64,000 nt of DNA, taken from the IMG/VR virus record IMGVR_UViG_2703718817_000003. One strand, 5' to 3'. Below are positions 4,001-32,650 of the stretch, in pieces (position 1 is the stretch's first letter; each line of letters starts with the position of its first letter). The position numbers were made by a program, and so were the translations under genes. The notes under the pieces are model-generated. The model was not told the DNA's origin, made no database searches, and worked only from the letters and a program-made list of their open reading frames with translations. This DNA comes from a virus (Duplodnaviria; Heunggongvirae; Uroviricota; Caudoviricetes).

Positions 4001-7000
4001 GAGAAAAAACCATCGAGGAGAACTCACAGCAAGCTGTCTTTAATGCTGTGGAAATGGGGCGTCTTGACCTGGCGTCTGGTAAACACCGTGATGCGCAGAA
4101 GAAGAACAAGATTAAGGATCAGGCCGCGAATACCGGTACAACGAAGAAGCAGAATATCCCGTACTTTGAGGATATGAACTTCGATAGCGTGATTGCCGAC
4201 GAGGGGCATAACTACCGCAACTCCTTTAATGCCGGGCGTGAAGCGGGACAACTGGCATATTTGCCTAACCCGGCAGTATCCAAGATGGCCCGCGACATGG
4301 CTGTAAAAGCTGCGTACATGATGAAACGCAACAACGGGCGTGGTGTAGTCATGCTGACGGCAACTCCGCTGGTGAACAGTCCGATTGATGCCTTCAACAT
4401 GCTGTCTACTGTCATTCCGCAGGAAGAGTGGATGCGCATGGGCATTATTACGCCGGATGATTTCGTTCGCGTGTTCGGCAAAACAGCCACAGTTCAGGTT
4501 CAGAAAATTTCCGGTGAGGTGGAAGAGAAGCAGGGGCTGGTGGGCTTCCAGAACCTTGATGGTCTGCGTGGTATTTTCCACCGTTGGACCACTCTGAAGA
4601 CTGCCGCAGATGTCGGAGCGACGGTTAAAATTCCCGACATCATCGAGAACACCTTGCAGATCCCGATGACAGGGGAGCAGGAGGCTGCTTATGAAGAGCT
4701 TCGTAAGCGTGCTCAGGAGTTAAGTCGCAATGATGAGCTGACAGTCGATGAAAACGGGCATATCACTAACGACAAACCGGATGATTTCATCTTCTCCATC
4801 ATCCGCGACATGGATAAGGTTGCTATAGATCCGGATCTGTATGCCAGTGCGATTACATTCCAGTTCCCCGTTGAGCTTGCAGACAAGGTAAAAGCTATTG
4901 CGGATGCCCTGCCAAAAGTCGCAGGCGGTAAAGTGGCAGATGATGCAGACGAGGCCGAAGAAGACGGCGCTGGTGGACTGGTCAGTACGCGTACCAGCAA
5001 GGTAGTGAAGACCACCTTTAGTGAACATCCGGCGCATGTTGAAATACGCGCCAGCATTGAACTGGAAGCTGAAATACTGAAGGCCATTGCTGCCGCCGGG
5101 ATTGATCTGCAGCAGGTATCACACCCCATCCCGCCGAAGTATGCCGCGCTGATCGAAAACCTTCGTGAAGGTTTGAAGAACGGTAAACAAATTGTCTTCA
5201 TTGATGAAAAAGCCCAGCACCAGAAGCTGCGCCGTATTATCGCCAGTGCACTGCAAATGCCGGAGCAGGAGATAGGCATTATCAATGCGACGACCGTTAG
5301 CCAGGCTGGCGGCATCAAGCTGAAGAAGGTGAATAAGCCGACTGAACCTACTCCGAATAAAAACGGTGAATACAAAGAAGGGGCATGGGAAACCTACTAC
5401 AGCAAACTTGCCCAATATGAGGATTATCTCTCAGCTAAAAATGATGCTGGCCTTGAGGGTATGGAAGGCATTGCCGCCGACTATAACGAAGGGCGCACGC
5501 GCATCATTATCTGTAACAAGAAGGCTGAAGTAGGTATTAACCTGCATATCGGGACAACCGATATCCACCACCTGACACTACCCTGGACACCAGCCAGTAT
5601 CGACCAACGAAATGGGCGCGGTGCGCGCGTAGGTTCACCGCAAGAGAAGGTCAATGTTCACTACTATTGTGGCAAAGGCACATTCGACGACTTCCGTCTG
5701 GATACGCTGAAACGTAAGAAAGACTGGATCAAGATGGTGATGACCTCCGACATGTCAGAGATCGCCAATGGTGATGCGGATGATGCTGATGAACGCGCCA
5801 TTATGCTGGCGGCAAACCCGGAAGAACGCCGCGCAATCATGGCTCGCCAGGCGCAAGAGCGCGAAGAACGTCTGAAACTGAAAGCACAGCGCGAGGCCAA
5901 CAATGCTCTCGATATCTACCTGAAAGCGGCAAACGCCGCTGGAAAAGATATCGGCATGATGGAGACAGAACTGAAAAGCGCGATGGAACAGATAGAGTAT
6001 TACCAGCGAAATCTTGACGACCTGATAAAAGCGGGTACGAACAGGAATGGGCAAAAATTCGCGCTTGAGCAGTTGAGTAGCTACAGAAAACGTGCGCGGG
6101 TGCTGCGGTTTGCGATCACCAGGGCAAAAGACGCGGATACCATAATGAAACGCTCTCGTGGTGATGTGGAGCGAGCTATTAAGTCTGGTGTGCTGGATAT
6201 CAGTATCGATGTTATTCAGAACCCACAGGAATATATGCGCACTGACAAGAATATCCTGTTGCATAAAGGTAGTTATTACCGTGCAGTCATTGATGATCGC
6301 GAAACAACAGCGATTGTCCGGGTGGAAAAAATTGACGGTGAAAAAGCACAATACCTCTGCCGTATCGCCTGGCTGGATAGAGCAAGTCGTTACGCTCGAT
6401 CACCGGGGTCAATCGTTACATTGCCGTTTGACTCTGTGATTGAAGCGGTAACTTTTGAAGAGGGGGTAGCTGAATCGCGCGCAACGGCTGCGCGTGGTGT
6501 TCAGTGCCACCAGCTATCAACAATACTTACTCGCGATCAGTTCTATGATGCTATTCGCAATGGGGTAATGAATGTTATTGCTGGTAAACCTGGTAATGCA
6601 TGGGGCGGTGGGTCAGCTATTAAATACTGGGCATATCGCACAGATGATGGTCAGATCGCGCTGTCATCGGCCTATGATGGCGTGATAGGCCAAAAAATCG
6701 GGCGAGCATCGGATATAGCACCTGAACGATGGATATATCCAGATGGCAACGATGAGGCGCTGAAGCGTGAAGTGGCAAAAATACAAGCCAGTGATAACCC
6801 GCTGAATATCGTGGACGGCGAGGGATTCCTCCAGGCATTGTATGGGTATGATTACATCCAGGGAATGCAGGCATGGGGCGCACAGGCAACGATGGATGAT
6901 GTTGTCCAGGAGTTCGAAAACTGGATGGCTGGGCGTGGTCTGTCAGGTCGTTCGCTTAATAAAGTCACTTCTGAAGATATTCTTAGCTTGTTCCGCAAAC

Positions 7001-12466: not shown

Positions 12467-12543
12467 GATGGTGTAGCTCAGTAGGATAGAGCAGCAGCCT
12501 TCTAAGCTGTCGGTCGGTGGTTCGAATCCACCCACCATCGCCA
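12467..12543 (+). tRNA. tRNA-Arg (anticodon UCU)
   Basis: Manual cloverleaf: acceptor GATGGTG/CACCATC, D-arm GCTC...GAGC, anticodon loop CTTCTAA, T-arm GGTGG-TTCGAAT-CCACC, encoded CCA. Confidence 0.8.
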
Positions 12544-12548
12544 ATTTA

Positions 12549-12635
12549 GGGGAGTTAGTCCGTAGGGGTAGCGGGGTAGACTGTAAATCTACTGTCATTG
12601 CGACTCGGATGGTTCGACTCCATCACTCCCCACCA
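12549..12635 (+). tRNA. tRNA-Tyr (anticodon GUA), class II with long variable arm; D-arm atypical
   Basis: Acceptor GGGGAGT/ACTCCCC, anticodon arm GTAGA-CTGTAAA-TCTAC, variable arm TGTCATTGCGACTCG, T-arm GATGG-TTCGACT-CCATC, CCA encoded. Confidence 0.6.
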
Positions 12636-12639
12636 AATT

Positions 12640-12715
12640 GCCGGTTTAGCTCAGTTGGTAGAGCAGTCGCTTTGTAAGCGAATGGTCAGCGGTTCGATCC
12701 CGTTAACCGGCACCA
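12640..12715 (+). tRNA. tRNA-Thr (anticodon UGU)
   Basis: Acceptor GCCGGTT/AACCGGC, D-arm GCTC-AGTTGGTA-GAGC, anticodon loop TTTGTAA, T-loop TTCGATC, CCA encoded. Confidence 0.85.
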
Positions 12716-12903
12716 ACACAACAGGTAAGGGTATTTTGCGACATCGGAGATCGCCGAGCTTGGCAGAGGGTTCGAATCCCTACGAAGTACCCTTGCCGTT
12801 GTGATGAATGCACAGGCTGATGTGCCGCAACTACAGTAGTGCGCGCTTTGCGGGGCTTGCTACAACCCTGTGTCGGAGTTCAGCACCGACCATCACAATC
12901 ACT

Positions 12904-12990
12904 GGAGAGTAGGGAGCATGGTGCTCAAGCGGTCTTGAAAACCGTCCCATTGCGCAAGCGATGATGGTTCGATTCCATTACTCTCCGCCA
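12904..12990 (+). tRNA. tRNA-Ser-like (anticodon UGA), class II; D-arm noncanonical
   Basis: Acceptor GGAGAGT/ACTCTCC plus GCCA; anticodon arm GCGGT-CTTGAAA-ACCGT; long variable region; T-arm GATGG-TTCGATT-CCATT. Confidence 0.55.
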
Positions 12991-13419
12991 GCGCAACGTT
13001 AAGAGTATTTGGCTAATTAAGCGAATGCCGGAAGCAGAACCGGATCACCAAATGCGTACAGGCGTCATCGCCGCCCAGTCAGCCAAATGCTCTTACCATT
13101 GCGGTGAATGCGGCTAAGCGCACGCGGAACAGTTAAAACAGTAAAGGTGGTCTTTTTACTGGCGTAACGAGCATCCATAAGTGATCCGGCGTTAATTGTT
13201 AACTGGTTAACGTCACCGGGAGGCACCCGGCACCGCAACCTAACAGCAATGGCGTTTTGTCTTAAAAGGTGGCTGCAAGTGATGGATTTTTGGGCGTTTG
13301 CCGATAAAAACCCGGAGTGGACATTATTGTTTCTGCTGGTGGTTGCATACGGGGTAGAGCAAGCGGCAAAAGCCTTACGCGGTTCTGGCAAAAAGCGTAA
13401 GCGTAATTAACAGTAATCT

Positions 13420-13495
13420 GGCCCTTTAGCTCAGTGGTTAGAGCGGGCGACTCATAATCGCACGGTCACCGGTTCAAGTCCGGTAGGGGCCACCA
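13420..13495 (+). tRNA. tRNA-Ile2-like (anticodon CAU, lysidine type) or tRNA-Met
   Basis: GGCCCTTTAGCTCAGTGGTTAGAGC...CTCATAA...GGTTCAAGTCCGG...AGGGGCCACCA; closely resembles enterobacterial ileX from memory. Confidence 0.75.
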
Positions 13496-15012: not shown

Positions 15013-15405
15013 ATGGAGCAAATCAGTAGCGCCGAAATAGCGGATATCATGATCAGGGCTGACTGCTATCTGACGGTCACCGAAATCACCAGCCGTGCAA
15101 AAGCACAATATCCTCACCTTCATGTGTCGCGCGTAAACGTAAATAACATCATACGTTTTTTTGTTCGTTCCAGTCGTGCCATTTGCGAAATAGACGACCG
15201 CGTATACCCCCGGAAATATTGGTTACATGGCCTGAATGGATACCAGTTCAAGGTGCGCGGGCGCACTCCTGAATTCGGTCGGCTGTTGGTGAAAAACACC
15301 AACCGAAAGATAGAAGCTCAATTACGAAAGGAGCAGCGTCAGTTGGTGGCGATGACTAACCAGCTATGGAACGCCGCTGTGAAAAAACGTGAGGCTTCCC
15401 TATGA
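15013..15405 (+). CDS. hypothetical protein upstream of pacA (position of P1 lpa)
   Basis: 130 aa ORF overlapping pacA start by 4 nt; function inferred from position only. Confidence 0.4.
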   Translation: MEQISSAEIADIMIRADCYLTVTEITSRAKAQYPHLHVSRVNVNNIIRFFVRSSRAICEIDDRVYPRKYWLHGLNGYQFKVRGRTPEFGRLLVKNTNRKIEAQLRKEQRQLVAMTNQLWNAAVKKREASL

Positions 15406-16766
15406 CGTTAATTAACTGGGAAGCGCATCGAGCTAAGTTCCTGGAGTTAAGAGAAGAAACCGGGATCACCATAAAAGAATATTGCGAGCAGCATGACCTC
15501 AGCTTTAACACCGCCAGAAAGCATCTCAATATGAAAAAAAATGAGGTTAAGGCGAAAGCAAAGGCTGCCGGGAAAAGTACAAAACAGCGCGCAAAAAGCA
15601 GCGCCACCGGCTCAAAAAAAGAGCAAAAAAAGGCTGATAAAAGCACAGAATTTACAAAAACTGACAAATCGTTAGCTGGTGGACGGTTCCGCGCCATGCC
15701 GCAAAAACAAAATGCGGATCACAAAGAAAAGCCAAGTAATAACAACAAGATACACAAGGATGTGAAGGGATCATTTTGTGATGAAATGGGAGAAATGATC
15801 CCTAAAAGCAGCGAAAAAGCCCAACGAAACAAGGGATCATTGCAAATGATCCCTGACTCATCAGCTCAAAGCGCCACTTTGCCTGCCACCAACGTCGCCC
15901 GTGAGATGATGAAGAACGGCGCGACTGAACATTTACGACTTGCGATACAGATGGCGCAGGAACGAGCAATTCAGTATCAGGCCATCGTTGACCAGGAAGC
16001 GGAGCGACTACAGGAAGAGATTGACGCCCTCGGCGATACACAGCCAGAGGGGATGCACCCAGGGCAGCGTCTTCTCGGCCTAATAAGCGATGCGGCCTAC
16101 TACATGAATGACTTTATCAGTAGGTTGGCAGCCATCTACCAGACCGAGCAGAAGCTACGCCAGGGGGATGAAAAACTTGCGCAGGGCGCGCGTCAGCAGG
16201 CATTCAGGGAGGCTGAGGCCAGAGAAAAACTGGCGATTGCCCGCCTGCAGGCCGAGCAGCGTGGCAAGGAGATTGAGTATCGCATTGGCGCTGACGCACG
16301 CGCCGCCAGGGTTATCGCCGCCGCTATACGTATGCGTGAGCGCGAGGAGCTGGACGATATAGGCGTAGCTGAATATATCGAGCGGCAGGGCGTCAGTGTC
16401 CCAGCTATCCTGGCGGCACGAGCGGCAAAAGCGATCTCACTTCTGGAGCCTCCGGTTTCTGACGTTAACGATGTTGATGATGAGCAACTGGATAAAGAGG
16501 CGAAGCAGTTTGCCGAGCAACAAGCTGGACTACCACAATGGCTTGCACAACGCCGGGCTGAAGTAGCGAAAATCGTTGATAGGCTTGGGATGGGGGATTA
16601 CGACCGGAACGGAGAACGTAAAGCCGGTGAATTTGAGGCCAATGATGAAGACCTGAATATAGACCCTTCCGCCACGGCTGATATCTACGGTGATTATGAC
16701 GCGGGGGATACCGGTTTTGATGCTGTAGATGACGAGATTGTGATAGACCAGCCGGAGGATGACTAA
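15402..16766 (+). CDS. pacA: Terminase small subunit PacA-like
   Basis: 454 aa; N-terminal HTH-like segment; lysine-rich linker; acidic C-terminus; translationally coupled to the large subunit (TAATG); contains a GATC cluster. Confidence 0.65.
   Translation: MTLINWEAHRAKFLELREETGITIKEYCEQHDLSFNTARKHLNMKKNEVKAKAKAAGKSTKQRAKSSATGSKKEQKKADKSTEFTKTDKSLAGGRFRAMPQKQNADHKEKPSNNNKIHKDVKGSFCDEMGEMIPKSSEKAQRNKGSLQMIPDSSAQSATLPATNVAREMMKNGATEHLRLAIQMAQERAIQYQAIVDQEAERLQEEIDALGDTQPEGMHPGQRLLGLISDAAYYMNDFISRLAAIYQTEQKLRQGDEKLAQGARQQAFREAEAREKLAIARLQAEQRGKEIEYRIGADARAARVIAAAIRMREREELDDIGVAEYIERQGVSVPAILAARAAKAISLLEPPVSDVNDVDDEQLDKEAKQFAEQQAGLPQWLAQRRAEVAKIVDRLGMGDYDRNGERKAGEFEANDEDLNIDPSATADIYGDYDAGDTGFDAVDDEIVIDQPEDD
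15765..15855. other. Candidate pac site: four GATC-containing elements in alternating orientation inside pacA
   Basis: GGGATCATT (15769), AATGATCCC (15797), GGGATCATT (15835), AATGATCCC (15848) within about 85 bp; P1 pac is a cluster of Dam-methylatable hexamers inside pacA. Confidence 0.45.
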
Positions 16767-18274
16767 TGGCTGGTGGTCGTAAGATTAAGTGCGTCACCAG
16801 TGATCCACGTTGGCGCGATATGGTTATCAGGTATCGATACAACTTTACCCAGGCGGTTGTCGATATTTTTGGGATGTTCCCCTCCCATCAGCAGCAGCAG
16901 ATCATTCAGTCAGTGCAGGAGACGGGGAGCAGGACGACCGTTACGTCCGGACACGGAACGGGTAAGTCATCCCTTACCGCGATGTTGCTACTAATTTTTA
17001 TGATCCTGTTCCCCGACGCCCGCGTCATTATTGTTGCGAACAAAATAGGCCAGGTAAAAACAGGCGTATTCAAATACGTGAAACAGTTTTGGGCGAATGC
17101 TGTTAAGCGCCACGGCTGGTTACAGACCTATTTTGTCCTGTCTGACACCATGTTTTATGAGCGTTCCCGTAAAGGGATATGGGAAGTGCTCTGTAAAGGT
17201 TATCGACTCGGTAACGAAGAGGCACTGGCGGGGGAGCACGCGGAGCATTTACTGCTAATCCTTGATGAAGCATCGGGCATATCCGATAAGGCGATTAACG
17301 TCATGACGGGGGCGTTAACGCAGAAAGATAACCGTATGCTCATGCTTTCCCAGCCTACGCGTCCAAGCGGTTACTTTTATGAATCCCACCATTCAAGGGC
17401 AAAGGCAGAAGGCAATCCGGAAGGAGTCTGGACGGCAATAGTCCTTAACTCTGAAGAATCTCCATTCGTTGAACCGAGCTTTATTCGTGAGAAATTGCTG
17501 GAGTACGGCGGCAGGGATTCGCTGGAGTACATGGTTAAGGTGCTGGGCCAGTTCCCGCGTGCAATTAACGGGTATTTGCTTGGTCGTGATGAGTGCGACC
17601 GCGCCGCACGGCGTAAAGTGTTGCTGGAGAAAGATTGGGGCTGGGTAGCGACCGCTGACGTCGGTAATGGTCGCGACAAATCGGTGCTCAATATATGCAA
17701 AGTATCCGGTTATCGTGAGAAACGACGCGTTGTGAACTTTAAGATACTGGAGATGCCAGGCACTATGGACCCGTTGGCTTTTGCCGACTTTATCTATAAC
17801 GAATGCACTCCTGATAAATACCCGAACATCACCATTGCTGTGGATGCTGATGGCTTTGGTTCAGATACGTGTGCGCAGCTTGTCCGCCGTGGTGCTAATC
17901 CCGTTCGCATCCGTTGGGGTAAGCCTATGTTTGCGCTAAGAGACAGAGAACGCTTTGTCAATCAGCGTGCTTACGCCAATATTATGGCAGGGGATGCCAT
18001 TAAATCAGGGCGTATGCGTATCGATAGTGACCCCAAAACCGCAGATCAGGCATCAAAAATCCCGTATATGCTTAACGAAGAAGGGAAGGTAGCGATGATG
18101 CGCAAGGAGCACATGCGGCAGAAGTTAAACATCAAGTCGCCGGACAGATGGGATACCTACTGCTTCACTATGCTGGTGGATTACGTGCCTGCTAATGAAG
18201 ACATTGGCGCAGAACTCGCAACATTCCGCGATCAGGTGTTGGCAGAAGTGGATATTCCTGATATTGACATTTAA
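16766..18274 (+). CDS. pacB: Terminase large subunit PacB-like
   Basis: 502 aa; Walker A TSGHGTGKSS; acidic motif LLLILDEASGI; position after pacA. Confidence 0.8.
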   Translation: MAGGRKIKCVTSDPRWRDMVIRYRYNFTQAVVDIFGMFPSHQQQQIIQSVQETGSRTTVTSGHGTGKSSLTAMLLLIFMILFPDARVIIVANKIGQVKTGVFKYVKQFWANAVKRHGWLQTYFVLSDTMFYERSRKGIWEVLCKGYRLGNEEALAGEHAEHLLLILDEASGISDKAINVMTGALTQKDNRMLMLSQPTRPSGYFYESHHSRAKAEGNPEGVWTAIVLNSEESPFVEPSFIREKLLEYGGRDSLEYMVKVLGQFPRAINGYLLGRDECDRAARRKVLLEKDWGWVATADVGNGRDKSVLNICKVSGYREKRRVVNFKILEMPGTMDPLAFADFIYNECTPDKYPNITIAVDADGFGSDTCAQLVRRGANPVRIRWGKPMFALRDRERFVNQRAYANIMAGDAIKSGRMRIDSDPKTADQASKIPYMLNEEGKVAMMRKEHMRQKLNIKSPDRWDTYCFTMLVDYVPANEDIGAELATFRDQVLAEVDIPDIDI

Positions 18275-18296: not shown

Positions 18297-18311
18297 GTGG
18301 GTGGTTTGCGA

Positions 18312-19349
18312 TTACCAGAGTTTTGCCGCGTACATCGTTTGTGTGAATGTGTACCCATAGCGTTCTTCAACGCTTTTACCGTATTTTTTCCTGGCTTCAG
18401 TAAGGCGGATGCCTGTCAGGTCATCGCCGGAGGCAATCATAACTTCCAGTAGTTCCAGGTCCATTTTATCCAGCCTTGCCATTGCATCTTTAGCCTCTTG
18501 AATTTTCCGGCTAACGATCTGGTGTATGGCTGGATCGGCTTCGGCCAGCATTTTATCTGATTTGTTTTTTAAACTCTGATTGCGGATATCAATGTTTCTC
18601 AGGATATATGACTTCACGACATAGCTTGGCTGCTGCTTTTCCAGATCACGAACCCGATAAAGGTCAAATTCGCCGAGAAGTCCGCACGGAAGCGGTTTAA
18701 TGCCAGTGTAAATGGTAAGGGTACGGCGCTCACCAACGTTGTTAACAACGGGAATCTCTGTGTTTGCTTTTCTTGCAAAGATCAGCGCACCGTGCGCACC
18801 CACTCGGAAGCGTGAAAGTCCATTGTTGCCCTCGATATTGGTGGTAATCACCACATCGGTATAACCTTCTTTTCTTGCGCGGTATACCTCGCCCTCACGT
18901 TCAGCGGCGAAGAATCTGCGTTCTTCTTCAAGCGCACCGACAACCTGTGAAAATATCCTGTTTTTCATGCTTTTCTTTATAGTTTTATCGTATTTTTTCA
19001 GCAGGTCTTCGCGCGTAAATGTTCTCGTTGTGGTTGCGCTTTGCATAACGATATGCGTACTCTGATTAGTATCCTCAACAATGAATGGGATCGGTAAATA
19101 AACCGACTCAACAATGTTTGAGGCTTTGTCATCATCCTTGCGACACAGATCAACAAAGGCTTTCCATTCGGCTATGCATTTTTCAGCTTCTTCTAATACA
19201 GCCGGATCATGTGTTAATGCAACATGGCGAAATTCCTCGCCAACATAACTGGTATCATGGAAAACAGAGTTTGCGACCACCAGCTCTTTCCACCGTTCGG
19301 CGGTTTGCAGGAACCGTTTGTACTCATTCTCGATCGACTTCTTACTCAT
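18312..19349 (-). CDS. hypothetical protein; candidate C1-like immunity repressor by position
   Basis: 345 aa from ATG at 19349 (MSKKSIENEY...); the longer track ORF to 19637 is rejected. Lies between pacB and the lox-like site/cre, the position of c1 in P1; operator-like motif at 19364-19378 directly upstream. Confidence 0.4.
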   Translation of the reverse strand: MSKKSIENEYKRFLQTAERWKELVVANSVFHDTSYVGEEFRHVALTHDPAVLEEAEKCIAEWKAFVDLCRKDDDKASNIVESVYLPIPFIVEDTNQSTHIVMQSATTTRTFTREDLLKKYDKTIKKSMKNRIFSQVVGALEEERRFFAAEREGEVYRARKEGYTDVVITTNIEGNNGLSRFRVGAHGALIFARKANTEIPVVNNVGERRTLTIYTGIKPLPCGLLGEFDLYRVRDLEKQQPSYVVKSYILRNIDIRNQSLKNKSDKMLAEADPAIHQIVSRKIQEAKDAMARLDKMDLELLEVMIASGDDLTGIRLTEARKKYGKSVEERYGYTFTQTMYAAKLW

Positions 19350-19363
19350 TATTCCTACTCGAT

Positions 19364-19378
19364 TTAGTTTTCTAACAT
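19364..19378. promoter_or_regulatory. Operator-like motif TTAGTTTTCTAACAT upstream of the candidate repressor gene
   Basis: Recurring motif family; consistent with autoregulation. Confidence 0.45.
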
Positions 19379-19545
19379 AAAAGTCCTGTGACAAATTTAT
19401 GCTGAATAACAAGGTGAGTAAAGGATAAAACCGCTTTTTTTTGATTGTTCCTATTAGAAAATGTAGCCAGGAACGGCTACCGCATGGCTGACGGATTTGC
19501 GAAGTGATCTGGTCGGTGTTTTTTTGGGAAAAAAGCCCCGATTCC

Positions 19546-19575
19546 AACTTTAAATAATTGGCATTATTTAAAGTT
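19546..19575. other. lox-like recombination site candidate (perfect 13-4-13 palindrome, readable as 11-8-11)
   Basis: AACTTTAAATAAT-TGGC-ATTATTTAAAGTT, 155 bp upstream of the Cre-like gene; arm AACTTTAAATA matches 8 of 11 positions of the loxP arm AACTTCGTATA. Confidence 0.4.
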
Positions 19576-19728
19576 AGGCTATAATCTCCAGTAAACAGGT
19601 AGTATTGACAAGGATGAAAAATCATGCCTCGAATCAAAGGCTTGAATTTTGAAAATTAACTTATAACTACCCTGTCAGTTTTCTATTTTTCATGTAGCGT
19701 TATCTGTATATAGAGGTTTAATAGTTTC

Positions 19729-20757
19729 ATGGGTGAACTAGTTATCTCCGGCGGTTCTGGTGGTTTTCTGCGCGATATTGGCACCGAATACCAGGAAGCT
19801 GCAAAAAACTTTATGCAGTTCATGAACGACCAGGGAGCTTATGCCCCAAATACGCTTCGAGATCTCCGTCTGGTGTTTCATTCCTGGGCGCGGTGGTGTA
19901 ACTCGCGCCAGCGCCCCTGGTTCCCGATTACGCCGGAAATGGCCCGCGAGTATCTTCTCCAGTTGCATGAGGCCGATCTGGCTTCGACCACCATTGATAA
20001 GCACTATGCCATGCTTAACATGCTGCTTTCGCAATGTGGCCTCCCGCCGCTCTCGGACGATAAAAGTGTGTCTCTGGCCATGCGGCGCATCCGGCGCGAA
20101 GCGGCAACGGAAAAAGGCGAGCGAACAGGCCAGGCTATACCGTTGCGGTGGGATGATCTGAAATTGCTCGACGTGTTGCTGTCCCGTTCCGAGCGGCTGG
20201 TGGACCTGCGCAATCGGGCGTTTCTCTTCGTGGCATACAATACCCTGATGCGTATGTCAGAAATCTCGCGCATCCGCGTCGGAGATCTGGAACAAACAGG
20301 TGACACTGTAACGCTGCATATTTCACACACGAAGACCATCACGACCGCCGCCGGACTTGATAAGGTGCTTTCTCGTTACACTACCGCCGTACTGAACGAC
20401 TGGCTGGAGGTGTCCGGACTTCGAGAACATCCGGACGCGGTGCTATTCCCGCCAATACACCGCAGTAATAAGGCCAGAATCACGACAACGCCCCTTACTG
20501 CACCTGCAATGGAGAAAATATTCAGCGATGCCTGGGGGTTGCTGAACAAACGAGATGCCACGCCGAACAAAGGAAGATACCGGACGTGGACAGGCCATAG
20601 TGCGCGTGTTGGTGCGGCAATTGATATGGCTGAGAAACAGGTGTCAATGGTCGAGATCATGCAGGAAGGCACATGGAAAAAGCCCGAAACACTTATGCGA
20701 TATTTGCGCCGTAGCGGGGCATCCGTTGGTGCAAATAGTCGCCTGATGGATTCATAA
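19729..20757 (+). CDS. cre: Cre-like tyrosine site-specific recombinase
   Basis: 342 aa; colinear with P1 Cre as recalled (WFP...E...REYLL, AYNTLMRMSEISRIRVGDL, GHSARVGAAIDMA, C-terminal catalytic region). Confidence 0.9.
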   Translation: MGELVISGGSGGFLRDIGTEYQEAAKNFMQFMNDQGAYAPNTLRDLRLVFHSWARWCNSRQRPWFPITPEMAREYLLQLHEADLASTTIDKHYAMLNMLLSQCGLPPLSDDKSVSLAMRRIRREAATEKGERTGQAIPLRWDDLKLLDVLLSRSERLVDLRNRAFLFVAYNTLMRMSEISRIRVGDLEQTGDTVTLHISHTKTITTAAGLDKVLSRYTTAVLNDWLEVSGLREHPDAVLFPPIHRSNKARITTTPLTAPAMEKIFSDAWGLLNKRDATPNKGRYRTWTGHSARVGAAIDMAEKQVSMVEIMQEGTWKKPETLMRYLRRSGASVGANSRLMDS

Positions 20758-20758
20758 A

Positions 20759-20773
20759 TTAATTTTCTAACAA
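20759..20773. promoter_or_regulatory. Operator-like motif TTAATTTTCTAACAA just after the cre stop
   Basis: Recurring motif family; precedes the 20830 operon. Confidence 0.4.
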
Positions 20774-20829
20774 TCTTTTTAGACAGTGCATTTTAATGTA
20801 AAGTACCCTCGCCTATTGCGGAGGGTACT

Positions 20830-25909: not shown

Positions 25910-25965
25910 TTTGTAGTAACCAGGGGTACTGCGGGTAGCCAAAACTACAAGCTCACCAGTCATCA

Positions 25966-26781
25966 TTAATACCGGCATTCATAGCATGAGTATCTCCACT
26001 GTTCATGGTCAAAGCACCAGAATGCTTCCCTGGGCAGATTGTGTTTGTTCATTAGCGCCAATACTTGCGTAGGCGTATTCGCGGGAATTTCTGGTAGTAA
26101 AGCCTTCGCCATTTCATGAACCAACATGGCATCAATGACGCCTAGCGTATGGCCTGCCTTAATCTTTAATGCAGTTTCAAGATAGCTCCTTTCCAGAGTT
26201 GTGCTTACTCTTGGCTTCGGCACCTCTTGTGGATGAGTATCCAGACGGTTGCCAGATTCATAGGCTACCCGCAGCCAGTGCATGAATGTTTCAGTAGACA
26301 CACAACCGCAGTCCAGGTCGATTTTTTCGCGTTGTTGCCCCAGCCATTGCTCAAAATTTAACTTATTGGATGCTTCAAGAGCCTCTTCGTATTGTTTGCG
26401 CGAAATTATTTCCGTGTATTCCTCGCGATAAAGGTTACTTATCGGAAGCCTGACCTCAAGGCAAAAATTGCGCCCACACGGGCTTTTCGCTGGATCAGAG
26501 CCAAAAGCAAAGAAACCATATGATGGTTCACAGCAGTCCTCTCTAACCATGCGACAATCGAGCATATCATCAGGCCACCCTCCACGCTTTGGCAGCTCCT
26601 GCACCAACAAGTCAATCAGCTTTATACTCTCACCGTCTTTGCAGGTTGCTAACGCTATTTGGGCAAGCTCCAATACCTCATCTGCCGTGTATCCAGCGCC
26701 GTGTCCATACATTTCGATGCGTGCAATAATCTCTGATATGCGGAATTTAGTGATTTTAGTCATAGTTTTATTTCCTTGCAT
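25966..26781 (-). CDS. hypothetical protein, Cys-rich
   Basis: 271 aa; several CxxC-like pairs; no recognised domain. Confidence 0.5.
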   Translation of the reverse strand: MQGNKTMTKITKFRISEIIARIEMYGHGAGYTADEVLELAQIALATCKDGESIKLIDLLVQELPKRGGWPDDMLDCRMVREDCCEPSYGFFAFGSDPAKSPCGRNFCLEVRLPISNLYREEYTEIISRKQYEEALEASNKLNFEQWLGQQREKIDLDCGCVSTETFMHWLRVAYESGNRLDTHPQEVPKPRVSTTLERSYLETALKIKAGHTLGVIDAMLVHEMAKALLPEIPANTPTQVLALMNKHNLPREAFWCFDHEQWRYSCYECRY

Positions 26782-26969
26782 GGTTCGCCTTTACGGCATA
26801 CAGCTACACGGTCATTTCTTACATTAACCACTGTCACCGTTCCGTCATCACATTGAATAACGATGAAAGGGTGTTCATTCTCTTTTGTGCAATGTTGCTG
26901 TTCTCCAGCCATTGCAGCCGGAGGAGCAAATAGCGCCAGAACAAATGCCAACCTTAAAAAATGCTTCAT
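26760..26969 (-). CDS. small secreted Cys-containing protein
   Basis: 69 aa; signal peptide MKHFLRLAFVLALFAPPAAMA; overlaps downstream gene by 22 nt. Confidence 0.45.
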   Translation of the reverse strand: MKHFLRLAFVLALFAPPAAMAGEQQHCTKENEHPFIVIQCDDGTVTVVNVRNDRVAVCRKGEPCKEIKL

Positions 26970-27210
26970 TTGGCCTTATCCGTTATCAAAATTGGAATAT
27001 CCGTTATCACGAGCGTGATATCCGTTATGAAGGGGGTAATAAAATTACTTAGTAATACCCTCCTCCAGACTGAACGCCAGCGATAACCCAGGCTGCAAGA
27101 AGCGTAAATCCACTCCCAGCTTCACATTCAAGCGTTCCCCATTCAACACCACCAGCCAACAAAACAAATAACAAACAAAAAAGTAATCCAAAATTTCTTT
27201 CTGTTTTTCA

Positions 27211-27510
27211 TTATGGTTGACTCCAGTTATCTTCAATAACAATGCTCAATCTTTGTAGCCATTCTGCTAACTTCAGCATTGCTTCTCTTTCGCTTAAACC
27301 ACGAGGGAAATCATCAAGCGATATTGTTGGCTTGAAATTCCCGAAATTATCCATTTCAACGGTCAGATTTTGCTCCAGCACGGTATTCCTTACGCGGCTA
27401 TTGTGCCGGAGCAAATATACTGAGCGCGATTTATTGGTTTTGTGGTCTAGCTTATATTCGGTAAGTATCATATGGCTTCTGCCATGATTATTACCGCGCC
27501 ACATAATCAC
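27211..27510 (-). CDS. hypothetical protein
   Basis: 99 aa ORF. Confidence 0.4.
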   Translation of the reverse strand: MIMWRGNNHGRSHMILTEYKLDHKTNKSRSVYLLRHNSRVRNTVLEQNLTVEMDNFGNFKPTISLDDFPRGLSEREAMLKLAEWLQRLSIVIEDNWSQP

Positions 27511-27516
27511 TCCGTG

Positions 27517-27918
27517 TTAATAAGAAAAGTAGACCGTTGCGACTCTGTTATATTGATCGAACGAAATAGCATTTACTTCATAGCTGGTGGGTATCTTTTC
27601 GCCAAGAATGTAACCAGGCCATGATTTCCACGGAATTTCTGCTCGTTCGTCATGCCACACTGCGCAACCAAGAGAACCGACCGTCTCTCCATACCGTTTT
27701 CCGCAAGTAACAAAGCCTATATTTGGCTTATCTTGCGTGACTGCTACAGTGGTAGTATTTGCGGATGCATTGATTGCAGTGCGTTGCTCCTGCTCGCTTG
27801 CGGCTGAGGCGCTAATTGCTGCCGTTGTTGCGGCGGTTGCAACAATAACCGATGCATGTGATAAATGGCAGGCAGATAACATTGCCAGAAAAATAATAGT
27901 TCTCCGAAATTTAGCCAT
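27517..27918 (-). CDS. secreted protein (signal peptide)
   Basis: Start chosen at ATG 27918 (MAKFRRTIIFLAMLSACHLSHA...); Ala/Thr-rich linker then Cys-containing domain. Confidence 0.45.
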   Translation of the reverse strand: MAKFRRTIIFLAMLSACHLSHASVIVATAATTAAISASAASEQEQRTAINASANTTTVAVTQDKPNIGFVTCGKRYGETVGSLGCAVWHDERAEIPWKSWPGYILGEKIPTSYEVNAISFDQYNRVATVYFSY

Positions 27919-28094
27919 TGATTTACCCTTTATTGCGAACATATTTAGCTGTGTGTTGCCGATGCGCGGAGATTCTCTTATATCAATTCCACGCGCTCTG
28001 CTAACGAGCAATCCAAATAATCATCCGGATGCTTGTCGGTGTTATTAATGATGCGAATCCTCAAATCTTTTCACCTTTGAGGATAAGTTGCAGG

Positions 28095-28773
28095 TTAGCC
28101 ACGGTTAACTCCTTGCTGTGTGGCGTCGAGTAATAAATCCCACAACCGCTGAGAGCAATTTCCGCATGTACAGCGTTGACCCACAACGTTTATCGCGTTG
28201 CTGATTTCCGGCGTTACCTGTTTAGGAACCATAACCCAACCATCCGGAGTTACCGGAAGCGAGAACGGCAGCACATCTCTGTGAACAAGTTTTTGCTGTG
28301 ACAGGTTATCCAGAACTTTCTGTACTGCTGCATCACCGAATACACCAAGCGCATCTGCCATAACTCCTACAACCTGATAAGCCTCAGCGCATACCGTGGA
28401 TAAACCATCCGGAATTACCGGAGAGTTGCCTGCCAGTCTACGCAAAACAGTCTTAACCGCCTCAATACGGTCATCATCGCAACTTTCCAGCGTATCTATG
28501 CGATCGAGCATGATGATGGCGTTATCAATATCAGGATTGCCGGTCCACTCATTACCGCGATTGGATTCGGCAGCCTGGTTGCCGCGTACTGGTTGATTCT
28601 CGGCTTTACCCTGTCTGTCGTCGCTGCATGAATGCCCTTCCAGCCAGACCAGTGCTTGTCGCATGAAATACGCAATATGCTTGCCGTGGTAATCGTCTTC
28701 ATCGATGTGAAAAGCGATACTGCGGATATATTCAATTGCGTTTTCAATGGCCTCCGGCGTTATCGGTGCTGAC
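28095..28773 (-). pseudogene. 3' portion of a gene split by the IS2 insertion
   Basis: Reading frame stays open from 28664 up to the IS2 boundary at 28773 and is in phase with the 5' portion at 30105-30477 once one CTGAC copy is removed. Confidence 0.6.
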
Positions 28774-28784
28774 TGGATTTGCCC

Positions 28785-29690
28785 CTATATTTCCAGACAC
28801 CTGTTATCACTTAACCCATTACTGGCCTGCTGCCGCAGATATTCCCGTGGCGAGCGATAACCCAGTGCACTATGCGGATGCCATTCGTTATAATGCTCGA
28901 ACGCCTCTGCAAGGTTCTTTGCTGCCGTTAACCCGTCTGGTTTAGGCATGATACTGATGTAGTCACGCTTTATCGTTTTCACGAAGCTCTCTGCTATGCC
29001 GTTACTCTCCGGACTCCGCACCGCCGTGTTCTTCGGTTCAAGCCCCAACATCCGGGCAAACTGCCGTGTTTCATTAGCCCGGTAGCATGAACCATTATCC
29101 GTCAGCCACTCTACTGGAGACGCCGGAAGCTCGTTGCCGAAGCGGCGTTCCACCGCTCCCAGCATTACGTCCTGTACTGTTTCACTGTCGAAGCCGCCCG
29201 TAGTGACTGCCCAGTGCAGTGCCTCACGGTCACAGCAGTCCAGCGCGAACGTGACTCGCAGTTTTTCTCCGTTATCACAGCGGAACTCGAACCCGTCAGA
29301 GCACCATCGTTGATTGCTTTCTTTCACGGCCACTTTGCCAGTATGTGCCCGTTTCGATGGCGGTACAGCGGTTTTTCGCTCAAGCAACAGCGCATTCTGG
29401 CGCATGATCCGGTAAACACGTTTGGCATTGATCGCAGGCATACCATCAAGTTCGGCCTGTCTGCGAAGCAGCGCCCATACCCGACGATAACCATACGTGG
29501 GCAGCTCTCCGATAACATGGTGTATACGGAGAAGCACATCCGTATCATCTGAGTGACGGCTGCGGCGACCATCTTTCCAGTCATCGGTTCGTCTGAGAAT
29601 TACGTGCAACTGCGCACGCGACACCCGGAGACAACGGCTGACTAAGCTTACTCCCCATCCCCGGGCAATAAGGGCGCGTGCGCTATCCAC
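28785..29690 (-). CDS. insD: IS2 transposase OrfB (InsD), DDE integrase core
   Basis: 301 aa; IS3-family catalytic region (...[25 protein letters not shown]...[14 protein letters not shown]...). Confidence 0.85.
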
Positions 29691-30013
29691 TTTTTTGCAC
29701 GCCCGTATTCAACGGCTTCTTTAAGGAGTTCATTTTCCATCGTTTTTTTGCCGAGCAGGCGCTGGAGTTCTTTAATCTGCTTCATGGCAACAGCAAGTTC
29801 AGAGGCAGGAACGACCTGCTCTCCTGCGGCCACAGCAGTAAGACTTCCCTCCTGGTATTGCTTGCGCCAGAGAAATAACTGGCTGGCTGCCACACCGTGT
29901 TGCCGGGCAACAAGGGAGACCGTCATTCCCGGTTCAAAACTCTGCTGAACAATAGCGATCTTTTCCTGTGTAGTACGCCGTCTGCGTTTCTCCGGTCCTA
30001 AGACATCAATCAT
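29648..30013 (-). CDS. insC: IS2 transposase OrfA (InsC), HTH
   Basis: [53 protein letters not shown]...; start at ATG 30013 with GGAGAG Shine-Dalgarno. Confidence 0.85.
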
Positions 30014-30104
30014 CTGCTCTCCAATGACTAGTCTAAAAACTAGTATTAAGACTATCACTTATTTAAGTGATATTGGTTGTCTGGAGATTCAGGGGGCCAG
30101 TCTA

Positions 30105-30487: not shown

Positions 30488-31021
30488 TCAGTTGTATCCG
30501 ATTGGATTAACCGCAACAATAACGCCATCCGCGAACAAATCTTTAATGAGGTGTTCGCTCGGCTCGCCTTTTTCGTACTCTTCAATAAGGTAAGTGTCTC
30601 CATCCTCATTGATATAAACTGGAAGAATGGAACCGTTGATGAAGTAGGTTCCGTTGTTATCGAGGATTTTTGCCTCGGCGATTTGTTTTTTGGTAAAACG
30701 ATCTTCTTTTTTCAAAGTTGCCATATCTGTTTCCTTATGTGGGTTAATTTTATTGTGTAGCTTCCTGAATGGGGTCCACACTATATCGATATACAGTTCA
30801 ACTAACGGTTCAAATACTTTCCCCATTAGAACAGTCACTAATATTGAGGCTATTGGTATCAGCAACACGAAAAACAGAATGATAAACAGCAATTCTAGTG
30901 CTCTACTCTTTCGCGGATATTCTTTTCTGAATAAAGTGGGCATTTCCTCCCCATTAAATGCCTCAATGATTTCTCCAGTGTTTTGCGCTGCACCTGAATT
31001 ATCTTTAAATCCTTCTTTCAT
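30488..31021 (-). CDS. membrane protein, hypothetical
   Basis: 177 aa with one strong transmembrane segment (LLFIILFFVLLIPIASILVTVLMG). Confidence 0.45.
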   Translation of the reverse strand: MKEGFKDNSGAAQNTGEIIEAFNGEEMPTLFRKEYPRKSRALELLFIILFFVLLIPIASILVTVLMGKVFEPLVELYIDIVWTPFRKLHNKINPHKETDMATLKKEDRFTKKQIAEAKILDNNGTYFINGSILPVYINEDGDTYLIEEYEKGEPSEHLIKDLFADGVIVAVNPIGYN

Positions 31022-31716
31022 CGTTTGCTATCTTCCTCACACCCAAGATATGAAAGAGATGTAATTGCTTTTGCACGGAAACCACCAACCTTGCTAAGTG
31101 CGCTTTTAAGTGCGTCAAGGTCAGATTGTGATTTGATCATGAAAGTTAACCGCGCAATTCCAGACATAGAGTCAGAACCATTCACTGCGTTGTAGTGATA
31201 TATGTATCGGGTGACTGATTGAGTCACGCCCTCCTGCTGGTGGTTTATATTGGCGTCCTGTCTTGTGTTGGCCTGCTCCAACTCTTCGATACGTTCAGCC
31301 ATCGCAGCACACTCTTCAAAGTTGCTTAATGCTTTTCGCTCCGATTCAGCGCATTGTTTTTCCAGTTCTGCTATGCGCTTACCTCCATCCGCGATTACTC
31401 CCTCGTAATGCTCGCGCTGCTCGTTGAGTTTTGATTTTGCCGACTCCAGTTGTTTTGTTAGTTCCACAATACGGCAAACATCGTTGATACGCGTTTCCTC
31501 TAATGCGTTGATCTCATCCAGTAGTGCCAAAGCAACCTTGGGATTAAAGGCAGCAATAAATTCAGCGTTGTTTTTCAGAACGTGTTGCGCAATGGCCTGA
31601 CTACTTAGTCGGACCTCATAACCACGTGCGCCACGGTGTGGTTTATATGAGTCCCAGTCTCCCCACGTTGCTTTCACTGCCGCCTCACGCAGTGCCTGGT
31701 AATTAATTTCGCTCAC
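31018..31716 (-). CDS. Ead/Ea22-like coiled-coil protein
   Basis: GTG start; N-terminus [15 protein letters not shown] shared with the 31703 and 37245 paralogs; coiled-coil centre. Confidence 0.55.
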   Translation of the reverse strand: MSEINYQALREAAVKATWGDWDSYKPHRGARGYEVRLSSQAIAQHVLKNNAEFIAAFNPKVALALLDEINALEETRINDVCRIVELTKQLESAKSKLNEQREHYEGVIADGGKRIAELEKQCAESERKALSNFEECAAMAERIEELEQANTRQDANINHQQEGVTQSVTRYIYHYNAVNGSDSMSGIARLTFMIKSQSDLDALKSALSKVGGFRAKAITSLSYLGCEEDSKR

Positions 31717-32161
31717 TGGTTGCCTCCTTATTAATCAGTTTATACAGGTGCACCACAGTCACAGAGAGTGCATCCATCGCTCGTTTATCCAGGCGCGGGG
31801 CCAGAGCAACCAGTTCATTTATTGCAATCTGAATACGCTGCTCCGCCGCCAGCGTCGCGCGATTGCTCTCCAGTTCTGCAATTCGGCACATGGCATCAAT
31901 ATTTGCGTCTTCCAGGCGCTTAATTTCGCCCAGTAGCGCCAGCGCAACTTTTGGTGGGATAGCCGCGATATAACGGGCATTGGCACCAGCGTTTCTCAGC
32001 CCATCAATACCAGGCCAGTCAATAAAGTATCCGCAATGCCTACCCTCAGACGTGCGCGCAGGATAAATGCCGTTATGACCCGGCAAAATATATGCTACCC
32101 ATTCATCTTGCGTTGCCTGTTCCGCCGCCTCGCGCAGTTCTTGATAGTTAATTTTGATCAC
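31703..32161 (-). CDS. Ead/Ea22-like coiled-coil protein
   Basis: GTG start; N-terminus IKINYQELREAAEQA; coiled coil CRIAELESNRATLAAE. Confidence 0.55.
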   Translation of the reverse strand: MIKINYQELREAAEQATQDEWVAYILPGHNGIYPARTSEGRHCGYFIDWPGIDGLRNAGANARYIAAIPPKVALALLGEIKRLEDANIDAMCRIAELESNRATLAAEQRIQIAINELVALAPRLDKRAMDALSVTVVHLYKLINKEATSERN

Positions 32162-32414
32162 TGGTTGCCTCCGCTTCCCACGTTTTCAGACTTTCACCAC
32201 AGAACGGGCAAAATGAAATTCGAATCGGCGATTTAGAAAACTCGCCTGACCGCAGCATGATCAGGTCTTGTGAATGAATTAATGCATGGTTATAGATTTT
32301 GTATTTCAGCAGACCTTTTCGCGTCGTGTATTCAGCGTCATGTTCCAGGGATTGCGTCAACGCCGCGCACGGTTCTATCTTGTTGCCATTAATTTGGCAT
32401 TTTGACTCACTCAC
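32148..32414 (-). CDS. small zinc-ribbon-like protein
   Basis: Start placed at GTG 32414 after GGAGG (SESKCQINGNK...); C-terminal CPFCGESL plus upstream Cys residues. Confidence 0.4.
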   Translation of the reverse strand: MSESKCQINGNKIEPCAALTQSLEHDAEYTTRKGLLKYKIYNHALIHSQDLIMLRSGEFSKSPIRISFCPFCGESLKTWEAEATSDQN

Positions 32415-32650
32415 TGGTTGCCTCCTTTGCGGAGTTGCGCTGCGATGCACGAAAAAAAAGACTCCCGAGTATGACAGTTAAGAGCTGGTGCGAACGCCGC
32501 GTTAAGAACGGCGGCATCACAGCCGTCATCAATATAGAGCGCAATTTTTTTCTCCAGGCGCGCTTTGGCTTCCTGCAACTGCATACCCCGGCACGCACGC
32601 GGGATATAATCAGCAATTTGAGCGATAGCTTTTTCGTTCTGTTTAAACAT
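32411..32650 (-). CDS. hypothetical protein ending in QLRKGGNQ
   Basis: 79 aa; C-terminus [10 protein letters not shown] shared with the 36213 and 37727 proteins; stop overlaps downstream GTG (GTGA). Confidence 0.45.
   Translation of the reverse strand: MFKQNEKAIAQIADYIPRACRGMQLQEAKARLEKKIALYIDDGCDAAVLNAAFAPALNCHTRESFFSCIAAQLRKGGNQ

What the first reader, a model, noticed from the sequence alone, without database searches (positions are those of the whole stretch)
19546..19575. lox-like palindrome upstream of the Cre-like recombinase
AACTTTAAATAAT-TGGC-ATTATTTAAAGTT is a perfect 13-4-13 inverted repeat, readable as 11-8-11, lying 155 bp upstream of cre. The arm shares the AACTT...ATA core of loxP (8 of 11 positions), but the site clearly differs, suggesting a heterospecific Cre/lox pair with possible tool value. 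The candidate repressor gene sits on the other side, as c1 does in P1.
Basis: partly seen in the sequence, partly recalled or inferred. Interest (0 to 1): 0.55.

Follow-up and report, generated by a model that had tools for sequence, protein, structure and literature searches.

The report
Known Dre/rox recombination site
The palindrome is real, but it is the already characterised rox target site of the Dre recombinase (the Cre/loxP counterpart from phage D6, long used as a genome-engineering tool), found here in a D6-like phage-plasmid with a single base changed at its outer edge.

Summary
AACTTTAAATAAT-TGGC-ATTATTTAAAGTT lies at 19546-19575 as a perfect 13-4-13 inverted repeat. It occurs once in the window, and no simulated sequence produced an equivalent repeat. 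It is not new. In the 32-bp frame 19545-19576 it matches 31 of 32 bases of the rox site annotated in phage D6 and quoted in the Dre/rox literature; only the outermost base of the left arm differs (T to C). The gene 153 bp downstream (19729-20757) encodes a protein 94% identical to Dre and 42% identical to Cre. It keeps the catalytic residues and the three residues (R44, P259, K263) reported to discriminate rox from loxP. The divergent neighbour (18312-19349, minus strand) is 81% identical to D6 C1, and the gene order pacA-pacB-c1-site-recombinase matches P1. The site keeps the same position in all 35 viral-contig relatives that include the upstream region (56-99% protein identity). It is the best conserved island of the intergenic region and is single-copy in the complete genomes checked. 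The most likely function, by analogy with P1 Cre/lox, is dimer resolution and cyclisation of the phage-plasmid. Interest is low. The only loose end is a strong promoter-like element whose -35 hexamer spans the rox spacer.

The parts
19545..19576 (+). rox-type recombination site in the canonical 32-bp frame (14-4-14): CAACTTTAAATAAT TGGC ATTATTTAAAGTTA. It matches D6 rox at 31 of 32 bases; base 1 is C instead of T.
   Evidence: D6 record AY753669 annotates 4909-4940 TAACTTTAAATAATTGGCATTATTTAAAGTTA as the 'region of crossover (rox) site for Dre recombinase'. Published wild-type rox is the reverse complement of the same sequence (PMC4777119; PMC3082901).
19546..19558 (+). left arm of the perfect inverted repeat (AACTTTAAATAAT)
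19559..19562 (+). asymmetric 4-bp centre (TGGC), which gives the site its direction. It lies within the functional ~8-bp crossover region ATTGGCAT (19557-19564).
   Evidence: spacer mutagenesis in PMC4777119
19563..19575 (+). right arm of the perfect inverted repeat (ATTATTTAAAGTT)
19558..19585 (+). sigma-70 promoter-like element TTGGCA-16 nt-TATAAT (11 of 12 matches) pointing towards the recombinase gene. Its -35 hexamer spans the rox spacer, and its -10 starts 4 bp after the 32-bp site (19580-19585). Function is inferred only.
   Evidence: The -10 is conserved in D6 and in the 88% and 70% relatives, but not in the ~45% Pantoea-type relatives.
19729..20757 (+). Dre-type tyrosine recombinase gene (342 aa)
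   Evidence: 94% identity to D6 Dre and 42% to P1 Cre. Pfam Phage_integrase and SAM-like N-terminal domain. Best PDB matches are Cre, E about 4e-72. R175, H290, R293, W316, Y325 and R44, P259, K263 are present.
18312..19349 (-). c1-type prophage repressor gene (345 aa), divergent from the recombinase gene
   Evidence: 81% identity to D6 C1. Distant homology to P1 C1: 21% over 241 aa, pairwise E 2e-7. PHROG 1678, no Pfam family.
15402..16766 (+). pacA (small terminase subunit) homologue; part of the conserved pacA-pacB-c1-site-recombinase arrangement
   Evidence: collinear with D6 pacA
16766..18274 (+). pacB (large terminase subunit) homologue
   Evidence: 56% identity to P1 PacB; collinear with D6 pacB
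19367..19377 (-). copy of the dispersed TGTTAGAAAAY motif (candidate C1 operator) just upstream of the c1 start codon. Further copies lie at 19452-19462 (+) and 20762-20772 (-). None overlaps rox.

Best explanation
The palindrome is the rox site of a D6-like phage-plasmid: the single cis-acting target of the Dre-type tyrosine recombinase encoded 153 bp downstream. By analogy with Cre/loxP, one recombinase monomer binds each inverted arm. Two sites synapse as a tetramer. Strands are cleaved and exchanged within the central ~8 bp (ATTGGCAT) through a Holliday intermediate, and the asymmetric TGGC core sets the direction. No accessory factor is needed. In the element's life cycle this most likely resolves plasmid-prophage dimers into monomers for stable inheritance. 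It probably also circularises terminally redundant virion DNA when both ends carry the site, since rox lies about 4 kb downstream of the start of pacA, as lox does in P1. What is shown here: sequence identity with rox, orthology of the enzyme, conserved position, and single copy. What is shown in the literature for the near-identical D6 pair: efficient, Cre-independent recombination in E. coli and in mammalian cells. What is inferred: activity of this particular allele pair, the biological roles (taken from P1), and possible autoregulation through the overlapping promoter.
For: 31 of 32 bases match the rox annotated in D6 and used experimentally. The recombinase is 94% identical to Dre, with the catalytic residues and the rox/loxP-discriminating residues R44, P259 and K263 intact (PMC4957104; PMC7438526). 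In all 35 IMG/VR relatives (56-99% protein identity) that include the upstream region, a rox-type site ends 152-154 bp before the start codon. It is the conserved island in an otherwise diverging spacer. There is one site in the window and one in each of the complete D6 and NZ_CP056699 genomes. The gene order pacA-pacB-c1(-)-site-recombinase is the same as in P1. Dre is reported to recombine sites with 2-4 mismatches per half-site (PMC10250229). Relatives in Rahnella naturally carry C at the same outermost position, so the single T-to-C change is unlikely to disable the site.
Against: No recombination was or could be tested for this allele pair. The outermost-base change, with a neighbouring 1-nt deletion, is found in none of the sampled IMG/VR relatives or sequence-checked plasmids, and no record in the three searched collections matched the 151-bp region exactly; it could be a sequencing error or a slightly weakened arm. 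The roles in dimer resolution and cyclisation are transferred from P1 and were not tested for D6-type elements in anything I could read. I found no P1-style TGATCA/G hexamer cluster in pacA, so the position of pac, and hence the terminal-redundancy argument, is unverified.
Confidence: 0.93

Rival explanations
1. It is a new heterospecific recombinase/site pair, functionally distinct from Dre/rox. This is the novelty the first reader hoped for: the T-to-C change and the 21 amino-acid changes together shift specificity.
For: The site differs from canonical rox at one base, and the protein differs from Dre at 21 of 342 residues.
Against: The five 99%-identical recombinases in IMG/VR and three closely related plasmids (loci L113-L115) sit next to canonical rox with T at that position, so the enzyme allele did not co-evolve with the C. 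None of the 21 substitutions is a catalytic residue or one of the three specificity residues, and none falls at the contact positions of the published model that I checked by eye. Both 12-bp inner half-sites and the 8-bp centre are identical to rox. Dre is reported to be tolerant of half-site mismatches.
Confidence: 0.03
2. It is mainly a transcriptional control element: an operator or promoter palindrome regulating dre and/or c1, with recombination secondary.
For: An 11 of 12 sigma-70-like promoter (TTGGCA-16-TATAAT) overlaps the site, with its -35 in the spacer. The -10 is conserved within the D6 clade. P1 also has cre promoters flanking lox.
Against: The same sequence is an experimentally validated recombination substrate (PMC4777119, PMC3082901, PMC4957104). 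The candidate repressor-operator motif of this element is different (TGTTAGAAAAY). In distant relatives the site persists without any promoter match. The two roles are not mutually exclusive: promoter occlusion by bound Dre could coexist with recombination.
Confidence: 0.03
3. It is a decayed, non-functional rox remnant, or the difference is an assembly error at that base.
For: The C, and an adjacent 1-nt deletion in a T run, are unique to this sequence among the sampled IMG/VR relatives and sequence-checked plasmids, and no record in the searched collections matched the 151-bp region exactly.
Against: The recombinase ORF is intact, with all catalytic residues. Thirteen of the 14 left-arm bases, the whole right arm and the spacer are intact. 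The outermost position also varies naturally in functional-looking sites of relatives.
Confidence: 0.01

Closest known systems
Dre/rox of Escherichia phage D6 (Sauer & McDermott 2004, Nucleic Acids Res 32:6086; GenBank AY753669, MF356679)
   Same: The 32-bp site matches at 31 of 32 bases, including the TGGC spacer and its orientation relative to the gene. It sits at the same distance from the start codon (153 bp). The flanking genes are the same (pacA, pacB, c1 on one side; dre, two small ORFs and dut on the other). The recombinase is 94% identical, and 51.6 of the window's 64 kb aligns with D6 in the same order.
   Different: The outermost left-arm base is C instead of T, and one T is missing just outside the site. 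The recombinase has 21 substitutions. The c1-rox spacer is strongly diverged from D6. The element carries accessory segments that D6 lacks.
Cre/loxP of phage P1
   Same: The protein family and fold class are the same (42% identity; best PDB matches are all Cre or Cre-derived Tre chains). The arms share TAACTT...ATA (9 of 12). The functional crossover region is about 8 bp. The site is single-copy and upstream of the recombinase gene, divergent from c1 and about 4 kb from the start of pacA. The presumed roles are the same: dimer resolution and cyclisation.
   Different: Three arm positions differ (CGT in loxP, TAA in rox). The formal architecture is 14-4-14 rather than 13-8-13. The specificity residues are R/P/K instead of K43/R259/G263, and the literature reports no cross-recombination (PMC7438526). 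P1 has cra, coi and imcAB plus Dam and LexA sites around lox. A cra-sized ORF cannot fit in the 153 bp between rox and the start codon, and D6 annotates no coi/imc genes here; I did not search for Dam or LexA sites systematically.
Panto/pox (Pantoea sp. aB) and related chromosomal or plasmid Cre-type systems of Pantoea, Rahnella, Mixta and Erwinia
   Same: They have palindromic 12-8-12 sites with arms TAACTTTATATA, one base from rox per half-site, lying 200-250 bp upstream of the recombinase gene. Dre and Panto are reported to cross-recombine rox and pox (PMC4957104).
   Different: The recombinases are only about 43-48% identical to the window protein. The spacers differ. The genomic context is not a D6/P1-type phage-plasmid, and no overlapping promoter match is present.

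Membership tests
Dre/rox system (phage D6 type) | 32-bp target: 14-bp inverted repeats TAACTTTAAATAAT flanking the 4-bp asymmetric spacer TGGC/GCCA | tested here: met
   31 of 32 bases identical; only base 1 of the left arm differs (C for T). Spacer and right arm are identical.
Dre/rox system (phage D6 type) | Recombinase orthologous to Dre, with the catalytic R175, H290, R293, W316 and Y325 | tested here: met
   321 of 342 residues identical to AAV84949 Dre; all five residues present (residue list from PMC4777119).
Dre/rox system (phage D6 type) | rox-versus-loxP specificity residues R, P, K at Cre positions 43, 259, 263 | tested here: met
   R44, P259 and K263 in the window protein (alignment); the residues are defined in PMC4957104 and PMC7438526.
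Dre/rox system (phage D6 type) | Site located between c1 and dre, immediately upstream of dre, single copy per genome | tested here: met
   153 bp upstream, as in 31 of the 35 relatives with upstream sequence (152-154 bp in all 35). One site in the window, in D6 and in NZ_CP056699. About 30 kb of this element lies outside the window and was not seen.
Dre/rox system (phage D6 type) | Recombinase-dependent, accessory-factor-independent recombination between two sites, with no activity on loxP | not testable with these tools
   Shown in the literature for canonical Dre/rox only (PMC3082901, PMC4957104, PMC4777119).
Cre/loxP (phage P1) | loxP sequence: 13-bp arms ATAACTTCGTATA around the 8-bp spacer GCATACAT | tested here: not met
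   The arms differ at the CGT/TAA triplet (9 of 12 shared) and the spacer is unrelated.
Cre/loxP (phage P1) | Cre protein with specificity residues K43, R259, G263 | tested here: not met
   42% identity to Cre, with R, P and K at those positions.
Cre/loxP (phage P1) | Genomic arrangement pacA-pacB-c1(-)-site-recombinase in a P1-type phage-plasmid | tested here: met
   Same order and orientations. PacB is 56% identical to the P1 protein and C1 is 21% identical.
Panto/pox | pox-type arms (TAACTTTATATA) and a Panto-like recombinase | tested here: not met
   The window arm is TAACTTTAAATA-type, and the Pantoea-type recombinases are about 43-48% identical.

The most novel reading that the evidence does not exclude
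In D6-type elements the rox site doubles as the core of the dre promoter: the -35 hexamer TTGGCA spans the crossover region and a perfect TATAAT starts 4 bp outside the site. Dre bound to rox would then shut off its own transcription, keeping recombinase levels low, and natural spacer variants would change promoter strength and site compatibility together. I found no description of this in the papers I could read, but the original 2004 paper was not available to me.
Probability: 0.25. Interest if true: 0.3.

Novelty: already known. Interest (0 to 1): 0.08.

Why it matters
It matters little beyond correct annotation. Dre/rox has been a standard orthogonal partner of Cre/loxP in mouse genetics and microbial engineering for many years. 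D6-like phage-plasmids carrying it are common in Escherichia, Salmonella and Shigella: 193 PLSDB plasmids matched the 2.5-kb c1-rox-recombinase region, and 113 of 5,426 complete E. coli genomes matched the 151-bp rox region. There are three modest points of value. This is a natural Dre allele (21 substitutions) beside a natural 1-nt rox variant, which adds a data point on tolerance at the outermost arm position. The graded natural series of rox variants collected here (56-99% relatives) is a ready-made set for specificity studies. The promoter overlap suggests a testable autoregulatory loop.

Tried and rejected
1. Hairpin or terminator reading: the terminator scan did not call the palindrome, which is AT-rich with no trailing T run.
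2. C1-operator reading: the dispersed candidate operator motif is TGTTAGAAAAY, unrelated to the rox arms, and none overlaps the site.
3. Second or pseudo-sites: no other full site within 7 mismatches that resembles rox, and no extra half-site within 1 mismatch, in the window or in NZ_CP056699. D6 has one stray half-site at 20519 without a partner.
4. P1-type pac hexamers (TGATCA/G) in pacA: none found, so I could not place pac and left the cyclisation geometry as an inference.
5. The original Sauer & McDermott paper could not be opened by DOI or by PMC id, so its content is cited only through later papers.
6. The genome-contig scan returned only ~45% relatives (Pantoea-type) and no D6-type elements. 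These were useful for comparison, not for the rox survey itself.
7. Promoter-in-site conservation beyond the D6 clade: absent.
8. No structure prediction or large protein search was run. Identity to Dre made them unnecessary.

Full report
**Observation**

The sequence AACTTTAAATAAT-TGGC-ATTATTTAAAGTT is at 19546-19575 exactly as described. The repeat finder reports two 13-nt arms, 100% complementary, 4 nt apart. The 30-mer occurs once in the window even with 3 mismatches allowed, and never in 100 shuffles. Perfect inverted repeats with arms of at least 13 nt and loops of at most 10 nt number four in the window; none appeared in 100 first-order Markov simulations. The feature is real and non-random. 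The loxP comparison (8 of 11) is also arithmetically right; it is 9 of 12 in the frame the literature uses.

**Identity**

A megablast of 18300-20800 against phage records hits only Escherichia phage D6. Under the match are the annotations 'c1: phage repressor protein', 'dre: tyrosine recombinase' and 'region of crossover (rox) site for Dre recombinase'.

The annotated D6 rox (AY753669 4909-4940) reads TAACTTTAAATAATTGGCATTATTTAAAGTTA. The window reads CAACTTTAAATAATTGGCATTATTTAAAGTTA at 19545-19576. That is 31 of 32 identical, with the same spacer, in the same orientation relative to the downstream gene. The literature gives wild-type rox as 5'-TAACTTTAAATAATGCCAATTATTTAAAGTTA-3', the reverse complement of the same sequence (PMC4777119). 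It is also quoted as (A)TAACTTTAAATAAT TGGC ATTATTTAAAGTTA(G) 'in D6 phage' (PMC3082901).

The complete D6 genome record is numbered from the centre of rox, and its notes call it 'lox in P1'.

**The recombinase**

ORF 19729-20757 (342 aa) is 321/342 (94%) identical to D6 Dre, without gaps, and 42% identical to P1 Cre.
- It carries the Pfam Phage_integrase and N-terminal SAM-like domains.
- Its only solved-structure relatives are Cre and Cre-derived Tre chains (E about 4e-72). No Dre structure appears in the PDB copy searched.
- The catalytic residues listed for Dre (R175, H290, R293, W316, Y325; PMC4777119) are all present.
- The three residues shown experimentally to discriminate rox from loxP are Cre K43/R259/G263, which are R/P/K in Dre and Panto (PMC4957104; PMC7438526). 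In the window protein they are R44, P259 and K263.
- The 21 substitutions relative to Dre are at positions 2, 5, 9, 16, 19, 26, 30, 58, 59, 62, 63, 68, 76, 81, 102, 188, 217, 227, 270, 329 and 331. None is a catalytic or specificity residue, and none coincides with the DNA-contacting positions named in the published Dre/rox model, as far as I could check by eye.

**Context**

The divergent ORF 18312-19349 (minus strand, 345 aa) is 81% identical to D6 C1. It is a distant but significant homologue of P1 C1: 21% identity over 241 aa, pairwise E 2e-7. It has no Pfam family and falls in PHROG 1678, which has no assigned function. Upstream lie pacA and pacB homologues; PacB is 56% identical to the P1 protein. 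The order pacA-pacB-c1(-)-site-recombinase is exactly that of P1, where lox lies between the c1/coi/imc block and cra-cre.

The whole window is collinear with D6: 51.6 of 64 kb aligns at 74-97% identity, running through the D6 coordinate origin at rox. Over the 2.5-kb region 18300-20800, it is about 99% identical to ~90-94 kb plasmids of E. coli and E. marmotae. The element is a D6-like phage-plasmid.

**Conservation**

In all 35 IMG/VR contigs that encode relatives of the recombinase (56-99% identity) and include the upstream region, a rox-type site ends 152-154 bp before the start codon.

In a nine-sequence alignment of the c1-dre spacer, the site and the following GGCTATAAT form the conserved island, while the sequence to its left diverges beyond recognition.

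Natural variants exist:
- A-to-G at left-arm position 9 in ten loci.
- Spacer variants GGGG and TAGC, and a further variant whose centre and right arm also differ (L107).
- A TAACTTTATATAA-type arm in the 56% relatives.

The window's C at position 1, with a 1-nt deletion just outside the site, appears in no other sequence examined. The five IMG/VR loci encoding 99%-identical recombinases and three closely related plasmids all carry T. No record matched the 151-bp region at 100% among 72,556 plasmids or 5,426 E. coli genomes.

Dre is reported to recombine sites with 2-4 half-site mismatches (PMC10250229). Rahnella relatives naturally have C at the same outermost position. I therefore expect the site to be functional, but this is an inference.

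**Copy number**

A scan for paired half-sites (spacing 6-10, up to 7 mismatches) finds only the one site in the window, one in the complete D6 genome and one in the complete plasmid NZ_CP056699. About 30 kb of this particular element lies outside the window.

**Mechanism**

By homology with Cre/loxP, each arm binds one recombinase monomer. Two sites synapse in a tetramer. Cleavage and strand exchange occur in the central region through a Holliday junction, and the asymmetric core gives directionality.

Spacer mutagenesis indicates that the bases flanking the 4-bp core behave like loxP spacer positions 2 and 7. The functional crossover region is therefore about 8 bp (PMC4777119), and junction sequencing in B. 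subtilis fits that picture (PMC12331466).

The biological roles rest on established knowledge of P1 and on conserved geometry, not on a test. They are dimer resolution for stable plasmid inheritance, and cyclisation of terminally redundant virion DNA. I could not locate a P1-style pac hexamer cluster in pacA.

**Promoter overlap**

The consensus scan finds TTGGCA-16 nt-TATAAT at 19558-19585 (11 of 12 matches) on the strand of the recombinase gene. The -35 hexamer spans the rox spacer, and the -10 starts 4 bp after the site. The -10 is conserved in D6 and in the 88% and 70% relatives. It is absent from the 56% relatives and from the ~45% Pantoea-type systems. This suggests, but does not show, that bound Dre could occlude its own promoter. 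It is the only aspect for which I found no published description, and I could not read the original 2004 paper.

**Comparison and verdict**

The feature meets every sequence-level criterion for Dre/rox. It fails the sequence criteria for Cre/loxP and Panto/pox while sharing their mechanism class. Karimova et al. had already found Dre and rox in E. coli genomes by database mining (PMC4957104). Jelicic et al. systematically mined Cre-type recombinases with upstream palindromes (PMC10250229). The finding is a correct rediscovery of a known system, and its novelty is nil apart from a private single-base variant. Interest is low.

Noticed in passing
window 3323-62250, 21 sites; inverted pairs at 11122/11141, 14906/14925, 34667/34686, 39513/39532, 51135/51154; single copies at 19367, 19452 and 20762 around c1/dre: The motif TGTTAGAAAAY (extended consensus about TGTTAGAAAATTAAT.T) occurs 21 times, against 2.35 expected. 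It is often arranged as inverted pairs 19 bp apart, and two of these pairs form the strongest palindromes in the window. The dispersed pattern and the copy just upstream of the c1 start codon resemble P1's monovalent and bivalent C1 operators, but the sequence differs from the P1 operator consensus. These are probably the immunity operators of this D6-type repressor.
   Followed up: partly
window 19558-19585: A near-consensus sigma-70 promoter (TTGGCA-16-TATAAT) has its -35 hexamer inside the rox crossover region. It is conserved in the D6 clade only. Dre may autoregulate through it.
   Followed up: partly
window 28785-30058 (minus strand): An insertion-sequence-like pair of ORFs. A 301-aa transposase has HTH_21 and rve integrase-core domains (PHROG 157 transposase), overlapped by an upstream 136-aa ORF. 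It lies in a segment with no counterpart in D6.
   Followed up: partly
window 25910-28402, 30943-32129, 32394-33625, 42424-43487, 44521-45398, 46968-47840: Mosaic accessory segments without DNA similarity to D6. They include an Ead/Ea22-like protein (31018-31716), a HigB-like toxin (44732-45076) and several ORFs with no family or only unannotated PHROGs.
   Followed up: partly
window 40711-40789, 40834-40921 and 47025-47210: Rfam matches above gathering score: isrK Hfq-binding RNA, then C4 antisense RNA (the P1-type immI antirepressor-control RNA), and an sroH RNA in a non-D6 segment.
   Followed up: no
window 12467-13495: A cluster of five tRNA genes (Arg-tct, Tyr-gta, Thr-tgt, Ser-tga, Met-cat). 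D6 annotates three at the corresponding place (Ser, Thr, Asn), so the tRNA complement differs.
   Followed up: no
window 41309-41337: A perfect palindrome with 14-nt arms and a 1-nt centre, TTCAATTTCCTCAA A TTGAGGAAATTGAA. It is unrelated to rox or to the operator motif and lies near the anti-repressor/icd region. Unexplained.
   Followed up: no
loci L003-L076 (Pantoea, Rahnella, Mixta, Erwinia and others), sites about 190-300 bp upstream of the recombinase genes: Recombinases 43-48% identical to the window protein sit downstream of 12-8-12 palindromes. Their arms form a graded series TAACTT[TAT/CAT/CGT]ATA running from rox/pox-like to loxP-like. Several (e.g. L042, L045, L065) carry loxP-type arms TAACTTCGTATA, and several share the exact rox centre ATTGGCAT with different arms. 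Many sites are followed by a GGATCC...GATCC inverted repeat.
   Followed up: partly
loci L084-L112 (IMG/VR D6-like contigs): Natural rox variants: left-arm TAACTTTAGATAAT in ten loci (an asymmetric site); spacers GGGG (L091) and TAGC (L109), plus a further variant in L107 whose centre and right arm also differ; and TAACTTTATATAA-type arms next to recombinases 56% identical (L111, L112). This is a possible natural resource for compatibility and specificity studies.
   Followed up: partly
window 15300-16800: No TGATCA/G hexamers of the kind that make up the P1 pac site were found in or near the pacA homologue, so the packaging site of this element is probably different from P1's.
   Followed up: partly
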